Of a stretch of 64,000 nt of DNA, positions 18,001 to 21,000 are shown in pieces. Source of the stretch: an uncultured Gemmatimonadales bacterium. Its GTDB lineage: Bacteria; Gemmatimonadota; Gemmatimonadetes; Gemmatimonadales; GWC2-71-9. Where the stretch lies: assembly GCA_963798915.1 (NCBI GenBank), contig CAWCVB010000002.1:352001-416000 (forward strand), written 5' to 3'. The position numbers are program-made. Numbering within the stretch: the stretch's first letter is position 1; the number at the start of each line of letters is the position of its first letter.

Positions 18001-21000
18001 ATCATTGATCACGTCTACGTCGGCCCGCATGGTGGCGCCGATGAAGCGCGCCAGTCCGGTGCGGTCATGGATCGCAGCGATCCGGGCCAGCTCGGGCTTG
18101 AGCGATGCCAGCCGTCGAGCCTCGATGGCAGCGGTGTCGAGATAGGCAGTGTAGAAGTCGCCGATGCGCCGGCGGTCGGAGCCTTGAGCCGCCTTGCTCG
18201 CCGCCGCATCCCGCACCACCTGCTCCAGTTGCTTTCCCGCCGTTCGTGCTGCGACCGAGAACGCGCCGACCGAACTTCGGTCGGCGGGAATCTCGGTCTG
18301 GCGCACCCAGGTGCCGTTGGCATACGTGAAGAAGTCGTCGCCCGGCCGCACGGAGCGATCCATGCCTGCGGTGTCCAGGCCCAGCACCAGTTGCTGCGCC
18401 GTGAGCGGAGTAGCGAGCAGGACGAAGAGTGCACCGACGAGGCGGATGATACGGGCGGAAGCGCGCTTCATGATTGCTCCGGTGACCCTGGTGCCCTCAG
18501 CAACCCTACGCCCAGCGCCACGACGCCAATGGCGAGCAGCAGGGCGCCGAGATAGGCCAGGTAGATGAAGCCGTTGGGCTCACGTGCATCGGCGTGGAGC
18601 ACGGAGAGAAAGACGGCGGCGGGCAACAGGATGGCGGCGGACGGGATGAAGCTGCGCACCAGTTGGCCGGCACGCCACAGATTCTGGCGGAGCGGGTTGT
18701 CCATGTAAGCCGGGTCCCCGATCAGGAGGCGGAGCAGGTTTACCCCGCCATAGATAACCGTTGGCCATACGATCAGGATGATACCCGCCACCCGTCGTGA
18801 GGCATGGCTCATGGTGTGCCCTCCTTGAGCGGTCGGCCGGACATCAGGCATTGGCCGGTGCCATCAAGCTGCCGGAGCCGGGTGCGGCCGGCAACCCTGC
18901 CCGGCGGCACCGCCTTCACTTTCCTTTCATCGTGCGTTCACCTGAAGCGTCCCAGATTGAGCCTGACTCGGTCCGGGAGCAGGCGATGCCCTATGCTGGC
19001 GTGACGGTTTTCATCCTCTTCTTCGGCCTGGCGCTGCTGGATGCATTGCGGGACGGGCAGTGGTTTCGGGCGTTGCTCTGGATTGCGGCAGGGGCCGCGT
19101 TCTGGCTGCTGGAGCGACGCGGCCGTCTGGCCCGGGCTCGCCGACGCGGGGCAGGGAGCCCATAGGACCCGGGCGAATCGCCAGGCAAATGCGGAAGCTA
19201 CCGGTCGGGCGCCGTGACCGGCCGGCTCGCGCTTGCCTCGATAATCATGCGATAGGGGTCTGACGGGCTCTCGACATCCCACTGCAACCGCAGCGACGTC
19301 TCGCCCCATTCGATACAGGCATGGTAGCGGTCCTGGCCGCACTGATGCGGACCGGTCGCGATCCAGCGCCCTGCCGTATCCGGATACAGCTGGACCAGCT
19401 GGGTTGGGCTGCCAGCGCCTCGGCGCAGGTGGCTCAACTCCAGCCCCACGCCGTCCGGCATGGTCCGCCAGCATGTGGTGTTGTGGAATCGAAGTCCCGT
19501 GAGCGGTCCGGTGGCCCACTCTCCCTCTTCATGCCAGGTCACGGCCGATGGATCGGCCGCATTCTCTTTGACACGAATGCTGCCGGTCGCGGTGTGCACC
19601 TCGTCCCGGCCGCTCGCGCCACGCGCCTCGACCCGCACGGCCAGGTGCCGAACCAGCGCCAGGAGATGCCACGGCGATTGATTGCTCACCTGAATTGATC
19701 TGCCGCCGGATTCCAGAATTCTCCCGTCAGGCCCAGATGGTCAAAGATCGCCTTCATTTCTTCGGGGCCCGGGCGGCGCGCGTTCGCTTCCAATCGGGTC
19801 GAATACCAGGCGCGGGCCAGCCCCCAGAGCTGGGGAATTGTGACCAGCGGCCGCATCGGCGTGCCCTGCTGCGCGCACCATTCGCGCACCATTTCTTCCG
19901 ACCGGAAGAATAGCATGCGGCTTCAGGTGAATCCGATATCGTCCCACCATTGTGATGCGGGGAGGAGGCAATGAAAGAGCCAGCTTGACGGCTCCGGTCC
20001 GTCTGGTCCCACCTGCAGGCGCAGCGGTTCGCCTGACTGTTCGCACCGGGAACGCACCTCGGCCGGCTGCCGCAGGGCGGCCGGGACACCCAGGGCATCC
20101 CAGGCGCAGTTGGCGAAGTATTGCGTGCCGTTGCAGACAACCGCGTGGTGGGTTGGCACACCCGAGAAAGGCGGTGCCATCCGGATGGAGCTTCCGTCGG
20201 GCTCGAGTACGAGCACCCGCCGCGCCGCGAGTCGCGCATAGGCGGCGAGCACTGCAGGCACGTCGGCCCTTACCCGCGCTGCCACGTCCTCGACCGAAGG
20301 GCGGTTGCCTGTCTCGGCGAAGTGGCGGTACACCGCCAGTCTGGTTTCGCTGTCGAAATCCATGGTCAACCAAGTCCTTCCACGAACCCGCGACGCCAGC
20401 TGGCGTAGGCGGGCTGCCAGCCCAGTTGCCTTCCTGGCCTTGGCGTTGGAACCACCGCGGCTCAGCGTCATCATGGACACGCCTCCTTCACCGATCAGCA
20501 GCCGTGCAAGCCAGGCCGGCACGTGGCGTGGCGGCTTGGCGCCCAGGACCTCGGCCAGGAACGGCAGCCAACTCGAGACCGGCGCCGGTTCGTCGTCTAC
20601 CACATTGTAAATGCCCGGATCGCCCCGGGACATCGCCGCCGCCGTGGCCGTGGCAACGTCTGCTATATGAATGAAGGACCAGATGCCTGCTCCATTGCCC
20701 ACGACGGGAAACTTGCGCTGAAGAATCAGCTCTGGCAGCAGGGCTCCGCGGGCAATGCCGGTGCCCGGCCCGTAAAGCGAGCCGTAGCGAAGCGCCAGGG
20801 CCTCGAGATCGGTCGCAGTGCGAACGCGATCTTCAAGGTAGCGGATGGCCGCGAGGGTTCGCCTGAAGCTCGCGGGCGGGTGGGGATCCAGGGGCGCGTC
20901 TTCGTCCTTGACCGGTCCCCCCTCCCGCGCGAAGGGCCAGCCGCAGTAGCTCTGCGCAATGAATCGCCGGGCACCAGCCTGGCGGGCCGCGGCGAACAGG

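What a model noticed while it worked through the whole genome (the two positions that open the first line are those of the whole stretch)
19686..20360. MerB-like selenoprotein with FTU motif
The two gene calls g00654 (its last 145 codons) and g00653 are one gene for a 225-residue MerB-like (PF03243) protein whose in-frame TGA (C2:371923-371925, minus strand) encodes selenocysteine at the place of MerB's catalytic Cys159. It founds a Sec family distinct from the known MerB-like selenoprotein SaoL: motif W-W-D-D-I-x-F-T-U, stand-alone gene, found in soil phyla (Verrucomicrobiota, Acidobacteriota, Chloroflexota, Gemmatimonadota, Eisenbacteria). Database entries of this family are cut at the TGA and named organomercurial lyase.
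Evidence so far: Read-through translation is open for 78 more codons. In 80 of 80 homologous loci from GTDB genomes tblastn runs across the stop; the 79 loci that my motif pattern parsed plus this genome all have TGA at the same column (80 of 80; 1 locus had a variant motif and was not parsed; calls 61, 63), followed by 77-86 more conserved codons (xNMLFFRSEExVREWC...). Twelve nt after the TGA lies a hairpin TTCTTCC-GGTC-GGAAGAA: identical over 18 nt in 55 of 80, the other 25 differ at one or two bases, mostly A>G or third-codon changes at the 3' end of the stem, i.e. far more conserved than the codons require (SECIS-like). RNA fold of the 55 nt from the UGA gives that hairpin (MFE -18.8 kcal/mol; z-score on [...]
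(Added by a program. Inside this text positions count along the whole contig: contig position 352,001 is position 1 of the stretch shown here. "Call 12" and the like, gene names such as g00115 and contig names such as C1 are that model's own, and its searches are not shown. The text may have been shortened before it was handed on; [...] marks where a part breaks off. The agent that wrote the report below was given it as the finding of a first reader that could run no searches.)

Follow-up and report, generated by a model that had tools for sequence, protein, structure and literature searches.

The report
Overlooked selenocysteine MerB-like lyase gene
This is one intact gene for a relative of the mercury-carbon bond-cutting enzyme MerB, in which a "stop" codon at the catalytic cysteine position almost certainly encodes selenocysteine; it belongs to a large soil-bacterial family that databases cut short at that codon.

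Summary
Window 19686-20363 (minus strand) is one 225-codon MerB-family gene. Its in-frame TGA (19923-19925) aligns with MerB catalytic Cys159.

- **Codon:** all 80 fetched homologous loci carry TGA there, never TAA or TAG. So do 17 of 20 more distant homologues (30-46% identity). The other 3 have TGC (Cys) and lack the hairpin.
- **Hairpin:** twelve nt after the TGA lies a 7-bp stem with a GGUC loop. It is fixed at synonymous sites (Arg CGG and Ser TCG in 81 of 81). Loop sequence and spacing match the E. coli fdhF SECIS (loop at offset 22 against 21).
- **Translation:** codons after the TGA vary with the same three-base rhythm as those before it.
- **Fold:** the read-through protein folds as one MerB-like domain (pLDDT 95.6).
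- **Machinery:** the genome has tRNA-Sec, SelA, SelB and SelD.
- **Not SaoL:** 43 bits against a cut-off of 140, a T-U rather than C-U motif, no conserved neighbours.
- **Not classical MerB:** below the cut-offs, and MerA is over its cut-off in only 1 of 50 carrier genomes.
- **The apparent SDR fusion:** a 1-nt frameshift in the neighbouring gene.

Function (carbon-metal bond lyase with a Cys/Asp/Sec triad) is inferred and the substrate is unknown. This scan has noted the same family before on other DNA. I found no published description in what I could search.

The parts
19686..20363 (-). Whole MerB-like selenoprotein gene: 225 codons plus the terminal TGA
   Evidence: Translation with TGA=U. 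Pfam MerB 106.9 bits across the TGA. AlphaFold2 model pLDDT 95.6, pTM 0.91 over all 225 residues. Top 11 PDB fold matches are all MerB or MerB2.
20361..20363 (-). Start codon ATG
   Evidence: Most of the 80 homologous loci begin at the aligned Met. Many of them have an in-frame stop only 0-4 codons upstream.
20106..20108 (-). Codon for Cys86, the equivalent of MerB Cys96
   Evidence: PDB alignment. Cys in 39 of 39 Sec forms of alignment A1.
20097..20099 (-). Codon for Asp89, the equivalent of MerB Asp99
   Evidence: PDB alignment. Asp in 39 of 39 Sec forms. In the Cys forms it is Asp in 15 and Cys in 13 of 33.
19923..19925 (-). In-frame TGA, read as selenocysteine 147 (the equivalent of MerB Cys159)
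   Evidence: TGA in 80 of 80 loci and in 17 of 20 distant homologues; TGC in the other 3. Cys at this column in 44 of 150 representative clusters.
19893..19910 (-). SECIS-like hairpin: 5' arm 19910-19904, GGUC loop 19903-19900, 3' arm 19899-19893
   Evidence: Predicted by RNAfold. Identical in 56 of 81 sequences. Codons fixed: CGG 81/81, TCG 81/81, TTC 81/81. Third-position entropy 0.26 bits against 1.3-1.4 elsewhere. 96.9% of 651 cells paired, with UA>CG compensatory changes at 2 pairs. GGUC loop at offset 22, against 21 in E. coli fdhF.
19689..19922 (-). C-terminal 78 codons after the Sec codon, previously called as a separate short gene
   Evidence: Codon-position entropies for codons 158-222 are 0.69/0.54/1.34, as for upstream codons (0.65/0.56/1.42). 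The Pfam MerB match runs to residue 187. Model pLDDT is 91-99 in this part.
19686..19688 (-). Terminal stop TGA, overlapping the GTG start of the next ORF by 4 nt (GTGA)

Best explanation
Window 19686-20363 (minus strand) is one functional gene for a 225-residue MerB-fold selenoprotein.

How the codon is read: the ribosome reads UGA at codon 147 as selenocysteine. SelB carrying Sec-tRNA(Sec) is recruited by a hairpin that starts 12 nt downstream, with a 7-bp stem and a GGUC tetraloop. This hairpin has the geometry and loop of the classical fdhF SECIS. This step is inferred from comparative evidence and is not shown by experiment.

What the protein looks like: it keeps the MerB catalytic triad as Cys86 / Asp89 / Sec147.

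What it most likely does: it binds a soft metal or metalloid between Cys86 and Sec147 and cleaves a carbon-metal bond by Asp89-assisted protonolysis, as MerB does. It does this outside any mer operon. The substrate is unknown, and this step is inference from homology.

Where it belongs: it is a member of a large Sec/Cys family with the motif W-W-D-D-x-x-F-T-[U/C]. That family is separate from both classical MerB and the known MerB-like selenoprotein SaoL.

The apparent fusion to an upstream SDR/epimerase domain is a 1-nt frameshift in that neighbouring gene, not a real fusion.

The confidence given is for the gene being a genuine selenoprotein of a family distinct from SaoL. The lyase function on its own I put at about 0.5.
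For: **Recoding**
- TGA, never TAA or TAG, in 80 of 80 loci, while the terminal stops of the same genes are 33 TGA, 25 TAG and 21 TAA.
- 17 of 20 distant homologues from the window's own phylum also have TGA in the same column. The 3 without it have TGC and no hairpin.
- 44 of 150 representative clusters have Cys there, and 67 end exactly before it.
- The downstream frame shows coding periodicity equal to the upstream part.
- A conserved start codon after the TGA is absent in the distant forms (I, L or Y at residue 150).

**SECIS**
- Six hairpin codons are frozen at synonymous sites (CGG and TCG, each 81/81, out of six possible codons). Other conserved 6-fold-degenerate (Arg/Leu/Ser) columns use 4-6 codons with a top share of 0.28-0.65.
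- 96.9% of cells pair, with compensatory UA>CG changes at 2 pairs; 0 of 500 shuffles reach the observed score.
- The loop and spacing are as in E. coli fdhF.

**Machinery**
- tRNA-Sec scores 66.8 bits with anticodon TCA.
- SelB 312.7 bits, SelA 479.2 bits and SelD 383.2 bits, all over their cut-offs.
- selA is over its cut-off in 46 of 49 carrier genomes, with selA pieces in the other 3.
- In a 301-genome sample of the phylum, all 32 genomes with a TGA form are among the 242 with selA.

**Protein**
- Pfam MerB E 9.2e-31.
- Triad alignment to MerB.
- C86, D89 and T146 are invariant in 39 of 39 Sec forms.
- AF2 pLDDT 95.6.
- Foldseek's top 11 matches are MerB or MerB2, TM 0.50-0.73.
Against: - There is no experimental evidence of selenium incorporation or of any activity.
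- The 60-nt fold is not better than shuffles (z = -1.25).
- Covariation rests on few independent events: the hairpin is nearly invariant and the sequences are related.
- selA is common in this phylum (242 of 301). The co-occurrence test is therefore weak, and kin are not independent.
- No Rfam family matches the hairpin.

Against a classical organomercurial-lyase role:
- The MerB equivalog models are far from met: 59.8 bits against 193, and 51.7 against 200.
- No mer genes lie among the neighbours.
- MerA is over its cut-off in only 1 of 50 carrier genomes, and not in this one (these are MAGs and incomplete).
- Some Cys-form relatives carry a LuxR-type HTH domain or have Cys in place of Asp89. 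This hints at binding or sensing roles in parts of the family.
Confidence: 0.88

Rival explanations
1. The TGA is a true stop. A 146-residue truncated MerB-like protein and a separate 76-residue protein starting at Met150 are made, as current gene calls say.
For: An ATG (Met150) lies 9 nt after the TGA in the window and in most close homologues. Gene callers and databases annotate it this way.
Against: - The stop is TGA in 80 of 80 loci, although terminal stops use all three codons.
- Cys forms are continuous, with TGC in that column.
- Residue 150 is I, L or Y in distant TGA forms, so there is no conserved start.
- The Pfam domain and the AF2 fold both span the TGA.
- The hairpin is lost in the Cys forms.
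Confidence: 0.03
2. The gene is a member of the already described SaoL family, so nothing is new.
For: SaoL is a MerB-like selenoprotein whose Sec aligns with MerB Cys159 (passages of Haft & Gwadz, bioRxiv 10.1101/2022.07.06.499078). The SaoL model gives a weak hit of 43.1 bits and matches 62 of 72 family members at E <= 0.001.
Against: - The score is far below the curated cut-off of 140 bits, and only profile positions 45-129 of 159 match.
- The best E-value among 72 members is 2.3e-19.
- The motif is T-U, not C-U (T146 in 81 of 81).
- No neighbour family recurs in more than 6 of 81 loci, so there is no nine-gene SAO locus.
- The carriers are soil phyla rather than the anaerobes described for SaoL.
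Confidence: 0.04
3. It is a real selenoprotein but not a lyase. The Cys86/Sec147 pair serves as a metal or metalloid binding or sensing site, or as a redox-active selenenylsulfide centre.
For: - There is no mer context, and almost no MerA in carrier genomes.
- Four Cys-form relatives are fused to a GerE/LuxR HTH domain.
- Asp89 is Cys in 13 of 33 Cys forms.
- The N-terminal 60 residues resemble winged-helix DNA-binding domains: DtxR and LexA, rmsd 2.3-2.8 A, but E only 0.3-0.5.
- Most known bacterial selenoproteins are redox enzymes (general knowledge; abstracts of the reviews).
Against: All 39 Sec forms keep the complete MerB triad, including the proton-donor Asp. The fold matches MerB along about 195 columns. 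The HTH fusions and the D>C changes are seen only in Cys forms.
Confidence: 0.3
4. It is a pseudogene or an assembly error: the TGA is a mutation or a miscalled base in a Cys codon.
For: The same contig has a 1-nt frameshift only about 60 nt upstream of the gene's start, so indel errors are plausible in this assembly.
Against: The same TGA occurs in 97 independent loci from about ten phyla. Purifying selection acts on both sides of it.
Confidence: 0.01

Closest known systems
SaoL, the MerB-like 'selenocysteine-assisted organometallic lyase' (NCBIfam NF040728; Haft & Gwadz, bioRxiv 10.1101/2022.07.06.499078, passages read)
   Same: Both have the MerB fold (PF03243). Both have Sec at the position of MerB Cys159. 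Both are truncated at the UGA in databases. In both, the partner Cys and Asp of the triad are kept.
   Different: - 43.1 bits against a cut-off of 140.
- T-U rather than C-U motif.
- No SAO nine-gene locus, and no conserved neighbours at all.
- Found in Verrucomicrobiota, Acidobacteriota, Gemmatimonadota, Eisenbacteria and Chloroflexota, rather than the anaerobic Firmicutes, spirochaetes and deltaproteobacteria described for SaoL.
- About 78 residues follow the Sec, against about 50 in SaoL.
MerB / MerB2 organomercurial lyase (EC 4.99.1.2; PDB 3f0o, 3f2f, 5c17)
   Same: Same fold (Foldseek E 1.8e-11, TM 0.60-0.73). The catalytic Cys and Asp are aligned. MerB2 also has Thr before the second catalytic Cys (alignment).
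   Different: - Sec in place of Cys159.
- 21-23% identity.
- Below both MerB equivalog cut-offs.
- Not in a mer operon.
- MerA is over its cut-off in 1 of 50 carrier genomes.
E. coli fdhF SECIS, the archetypal bacterial Sec insertion element
   Same: A hairpin just downstream of the UGA with an apical GGUC loop at nearly the same distance: offset 21 in fdhF, 22 here (fdhF taken from NC_000913.3).
   Different: The stem sequence is unrelated. Here the stem is a perfect 7-bp helix with no bulged U predicted. SelB binding was not tested.

Membership tests
Bacterial selenoprotein gene | In-frame UGA conserved among homologues, with Cys in the same column in others | tested here: met
   TGA in 80 of 80 loci and in 17 of 20 distant homologues, with TGC in the other 3. 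44 of 150 representative clusters have Cys there.
Bacterial selenoprotein gene | SECIS hairpin immediately downstream of the UGA, conserved beyond what coding requires | tested here: met
   Loop and spacing as in fdhF. Absent in the 3 Cys forms. No Rfam model matches.
Bacterial selenoprotein gene | The genome encodes tRNA-Sec, SelA, SelB and SelD | tested here: met
   all four are over their family cut-offs.
Bacterial selenoprotein gene | Selenium shown in the protein (75Se labelling or mass spectrometry) | not testable with these tools
   No sequencing run was listed for the locus. No proteomics tool is available.
MerB organomercurial lyase (NF009710 / NF033555 equivalogs) | Score over NCBIfam's curated cut-off | tested here: not met
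   59.8 bits against 193, and 51.7 against 200. The best E-value among 72 family members is 2.1e-18.
MerB organomercurial lyase (NF009710 / NF033555 equivalogs) | Pfam PF03243 domain and MerB fold | tested here: met
   106.9 bits against 27. Foldseek's top 11 matches are MerB or MerB2.
MerB organomercurial lyase (NF009710 / NF033555 equivalogs) | Catalytic Cys96 / Asp99 / Cys159 | tested here: inconclusive
   The Cys and Asp are present; the third residue is encoded by TGA (Sec) rather than being Cys.
MerB organomercurial lyase (NF009710 / NF033555 equivalogs) | mer operon context, or MerA in the genome | tested here: not met
   No neighbour family recurs in more than 6 of 81 loci. There are no mer domains among 77 upstream neighbours; downstream neighbours were clustered but not Pfam-scanned. 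MerA is over its cut-off in 1 of 50 genomes.
SaoL (NF040728) | Score over the curated cut-off of 140 bits | tested here: not met
   43.1 bits, matching profile positions 45-129 of 159.
SaoL (NF040728) | C-U dipeptide at the active site | tested here: not met
   The motif is T-U. Thr146 is present in 81 of 81 sequences and in 39 of 39 Sec forms.
SaoL (NF040728) | Marker of the nine-gene SAO neighbourhood | tested here: not met
   No conserved neighbour was found. The individual Sao families were not searched by name.

The most novel reading that the evidence does not exclude
Sec-containing MerB-like enzymes of this T-U family are a widespread organometal(loid) lyase system in aerobic soil bacteria that works independently of the mer operon. 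It would be, for example, an unrecognised route of methylmercury or other organometal breakdown that uses the higher affinity and nucleophilicity of selenium. It may also be one reason why these phyla keep the selenocysteine machinery.
Probability: 0.2. Interest if true: 0.85.

Novelty: new variant of a known kind. Interest (0 to 1): 0.62.

Why it matters
Thousands of database entries for this family are truncated at residue 146 and carry names such as 'organomercurial lyase'. The search found 3666 proteins at E <= 1e-5, and 117 of the best 120 end at T146. A second ORF is called for the rest of the gene. Gene catalogues, mercury-cycling surveys that count merB, and selenoproteome counts for the dominant soil phyla are therefore all slightly wrong.

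Biologically, it would be a second Sec-bearing lineage in the MerB superfamily (whether it arose independently of SaoL was not tested). It has selenium at the metal-binding catalytic position and sits in aerobic soil bacteria with no mer operon. That raises the question of which organometal or metalloid it acts on.

The hairpin has the same GGUC loop as E. coli fdhF. The protein might therefore be expressible with Sec in E. coli, which would make the question directly testable.

Tried and rejected
- **Rfam scan of the gene region:** only chance-level matches and no SECIS family.
- **Folding energy alone:** z = -1.25, not informative.
- **Other genes in this genome with a TGA followed by a GGTC-loop hairpin:** 26 candidates. 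The 14 that I translated all looked like out-of-frame, Arg/Pro-rich junk. No second selenoprotein with this SECIS type was identified, and the genome's other selenoproteins remain unknown.
- **Formate dehydrogenase alpha (TIGR01553):** only an 80-bit partial match without a stop.
- **Sequencing runs for read or RNA support:** none was listed. So neither expression nor the reality of the SDR frameshift could be checked.
- **SDR orthologue in 12 relatives:** not found at E <= 1e-30. I used the protein database instead.
- **The '2 TGA' rows (G147:C84, G213:C24):** the second TGA is the terminal stop, not a second Sec.
- **'Full-length' database proteins P0003-P0005:** these are not Cys forms. One has W at the column; two are frameshifted around it.
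- **Literature:**
  - Eight full-text searches found only SaoL as a MerB-like selenoprotein.
  - Passages were read in two reviews (PMC9312934, PMC13188914), the Haft & Gwadz preprint, the BSepDB paper, deep-Sep and SelCysML.
  - Not readable: the J Bacteriol version (PMC9879109) and Haft & Tolstoy 2025 (PMC12013261).
  - BSepDB's Table S2 of families was not visible because the stored supplement is cut. These sources could bear on the novelty claim.
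Full report
**The sequence**

On the minus strand an ATG at 20363-20361 opens a frame that reads M-D-F-D-S-E...W-W-D-D-I-G-F-T. 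It meets TGA at 19925-19923, continues S-R-M-L-F-F-R-S-E-E... for 78 codons, and ends at TGA 19688-19686.

Under table 11 the first part is the tail of a 462-codon ORF (19923-21311). The second part is a 76-codon ORF that starts at Met150. The finding's coordinates are right except that the start is at 20363, and the upstream call contributes 146 codons rather than 145.

**What protein it is**

- Pfam MerB (PF03243) matches residues 66-187, across the TGA, at 106.9 bits.
- phmmer against PDB sequences aligns C86-A-W-D89 with MerB Cys96...Asp99, and residue 147 with Cys159.
- An AlphaFold2 model was built from a 72-row alignment of read-through and Cys-form homologues (A1). It has mean pLDDT 95.6 and pTM 0.91, with confidence of 91-99 in the part after residue 147.
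- Its 11 best PDB matches are all MerB or MerB2, with about 195 aligned columns and TM 0.50-0.73.
- The two 'genes' are therefore one MerB-fold domain.

**Is the TGA read as selenocysteine?**

*Comparative pattern.* A scan of one genome per GTDB species gave 216 relatives, of which the best 80 loci were kept (59-70% identity).
- All 80 have TGA in the column of residue 147.
- Their terminal stops are 33 TGA, 25 TAG, 21 TAA and one cut off by the locus end.
- My first motif patterns parsed only part of the 80. tblastn placed all of them.

*Coding downstream.* Across the 81 sequences, the mean column entropy at codon positions 1, 2 and 3 is:
- 0.65/0.56/1.42 bits for codons 2-146;
- 0.69/0.54/1.34 bits for codons 158-222.

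The part after the TGA therefore evolves as protein in the same frame.

*Distant homologues.* A sample of 301 genomes of the window's own phylum held 36 matching places in 35 genomes. Of these places, 33 have an in-frame TGA and 3 have none. I fetched 20 of them:
- 17, at 35-46% identity, have TGA in the same column;
- the 3 without a stop (30-36% identity) have TGC, which is Cys.

*Whole-library search.* Among the best 150 cluster representatives:
- 67 end exactly before this column;
- 44 have Cys there;
- 4 have Trp;
- 7 have something else;
- 28 are fragments.

*Tree.* A quick maximum-likelihood tree was built from the first 146 residues of 60 truncated rows (presumed Sec, including the window's own protein) and 39 Cys forms. 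The two kinds are interspersed: 14 changes on the best tree, at least 3 forced by starred branches, and a weak backbone. The 'Sec' label of the truncated rows is inferred from where they end, not from their DNA.

**The hairpin**

Twelve nt after the TGA lies TTCTTCC-GGTC-GGAAGAA (19910-19893).
- RNAfold predicts it. The 60-nt fold as a whole is not better than shuffles (z = -1.25), so energy alone proves nothing.
- The 18 nt are identical in 56 of 81 sequences. The rest differ at 1-2 bases, mostly A>G changes that keep a G-U pair.
- The six codons F-F-R-S-E-E are frozen at synonymous sites:
  - TTC 81/81 and 80/81;
  - CGG 81/81 and TCG 81/81, each out of six possible codons;
  - GAA 0.91 and 0.82.
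- Other conserved 6-fold-degenerate (Arg/Leu/Ser) columns of the gene use 4-6 codons with a top share of 0.28-0.65.
- Third-position entropy is 0.26 bits in the hairpin, against 1.3-1.4 elsewhere.
- On 93 distinct sequences (A2), 96.9% of 651 cells pair. Two outer pairs show UA>CG double changes, in 10 and 4 sequences. None of 500 shuffles reaches the observed pairing or covariation score, and slid registers pair 47-70%.
- These double changes come from a few related lineages, so they count as few events.
- The distant TGA forms keep the core CTTCC-GGTC-GGAAG, or a 6-bp stem with a CGGGAC or CGUGCA loop. Two of the three Cys forms have no such hairpin, and the third keeps only a 4-bp remnant.
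- I took E. coli fdhF from NC_000913.3. Its Sec codon 140 is followed by a hairpin whose GGUC loop starts at offset 21 from the U of UGA; here the offset is 22.
- No Rfam family matched.

**Machinery**

The genome (3.3 Mb, 17 contigs, 84.8% complete) encodes:
- tRNA-Sec: 66.8 bits against a threshold of 47, anticodon TCA;
- SelB: 312.7 bits;
- SelA: 479.2 bits;
- SelD: 383.2 bits, all over their cut-offs.

selA is over its cut-off in 46 of the 49 genomes that hold loci L022-L071.

In the 301-genome phylum sample, selA is found in 242 genomes. All 32 genomes with a TGA form are among them. Of the three genomes with a Cys form, two have selA. One (G252) is not in the list of selA matches. Because selA is so common there and kin are not independent, this is supportive but weak. 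The tallies include two genomes flagged as unpublished (G106, G206); no specific claim rests on them.

**What it is not**

*SaoL.*
- NCBIfam's model NF040728 gives 43.1 bits against a cut-off of 140, over profile positions 45-129 of 159.
- Among 72 family members the best E-value is 2.3e-19.
- The residue before Sec is Thr in 81 of 81, not the Cys of SaoL's C-U (passages of Haft & Gwadz).
- All-against-all clustering of ORFs within 4 kb in 81 loci gave no neighbour family in more than 6 loci. The larger clusters are other-frame ORFs over the gene itself.
- The 77 upstream neighbours carry unrelated Pfam domains. Downstream neighbours were clustered but not Pfam-scanned.

*Classical MerB.*
- The equivalog models score 59.8 bits against 193, and 51.7 against 200.
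- No mer genes were seen near the gene.
- MerA is over its cut-off in 1 of 50 carrier genomes, and in this genome the best match is 372.7 bits against 454. These are MAGs, so absence is not proven.

**The 'fusion'**

Homologues of the upstream SDR/epimerase are stand-alone proteins of 313-314 aa. Only the window's own 462-aa product combines SDR domains with PF03243.

tblastn of three of them against the window aligns residues 1-297 to 21311-20421 in one frame. The last 20-21 residues (...QLGWQPAYASWRRGFVEGLG) align to 20431-20369 in another frame, followed by a stop 2 nt before the MerB-like ATG.

This is a 1-nt frameshift in the 3' end of the SDR gene. Whether it is an assembly indel or a real mutation could not be checked, because no run was listed.

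**Function**

All 39 Sec forms in A1 keep Cys86, Asp89 and Sec147, and 38 of them keep Cys107. The Cys forms are looser: position 89 is Asp in 15, Cys in 13 and Glu in 2. Four of them carry a C-terminal GerE/LuxR HTH domain and one carries an N-terminal GNAT domain.

The best-supported reading for the Sec forms is a MerB-type carbon-metal bond lyase with selenium as one metal ligand, working outside the mer system. A binding, sensing or redox role is a live rival. Nothing here identifies the substrate.

**Novelty**

- Eight full-text searches found only SaoL (C-U motif) as a MerB-like selenoprotein.
- So did passages of two reviews, one from 2022 and one from 2026, the Haft & Gwadz preprint, BSepDB, deep-Sep and SelCysML.
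- NCBIfam release 20.0 has no model that captures this family.
- I could not read the J Bacteriol version, Haft & Tolstoy 2025, or BSepDB's family table.
- Earlier notes of this scan describe the same family in at least 14 other genomes. These are AI notes and not independent evidence. I re-tested their main claims here.

**Verdict**

This is a real and well-supported selenoprotein gene. It is a new variant of a known kind, the MerB-like selenoproteins, and it is mis-annotated throughout public databases. Its substrate is unknown.

Noticed in passing
window 20366-21311 (-), frameshift near 20421-20431: The upstream NAD-dependent epimerase/SDR gene carries a 1-nt frameshift about 20 codons before its end. 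This merges it in silico with the MerB-like gene into a 462-aa ORF. Homologues are stand-alone proteins of 313-314 aa.
   Followed up: yes
window 19198-19689 (-): A 163-codon ORF (DUF6314, E 2e-8) starts at a GTG that overlaps the MerB-like stop by 4 nt (GTGA). With the SDR gene ending 2 nt before the ATG, this suggests a tightly packed three-gene unit here. The arrangement is not conserved in other loci.
   Followed up: partly
proteins P0159, P0169, P0189, P0242, P0235, P0260 (representative clusters): Some relatives are fused to other domains. Four Cys forms have a C-terminal GerE/LuxR HTH. One Cys form has an N-terminal GNAT. One truncated (presumed Sec) form follows a 5-formyltetrahydrofolate cyclo-ligase domain, which may be another read-through artefact.
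   Followed up: partly
alignment A1, column of residue 89: In Cys forms of the family, the Asp equivalent to MerB Asp99 is replaced by Cys in 13 of 33. This would give a three-Cys site. The Sec forms never show this change (0 of 39).
   Followed up: no
G014:C153:342-1694: A MerA-like pyridine-nucleotide disulfide oxidoreductase homologue (394.6 bits, below the MerA cut-off) has one in-frame TGA. It lies in a genome that also carries the MerB-like selenoprotein and may be another selenoprotein.
   Followed up: no
protein P0003: One database protein of the family is full length, with Trp at the Sec column. Either a gene caller used a TGA=Trp code or the sequence has a TGG variant.
   Followed up: no
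model m247387da5609, residues 1-60: The N-terminal three-helix part resembles winged-helix DNA-binding domains of DtxR/IdeR and LexA: about 60 residues, rmsd 2.3-2.8 A, with E-values of only 0.3-0.5.
   Followed up: no
window 21388-23964 (-): An 858-codon gene with glycoside-hydrolase domains (MGH1-like, GH116-like) lies upstream of the SDR gene. It is unrelated to the finding.
   Followed up: no
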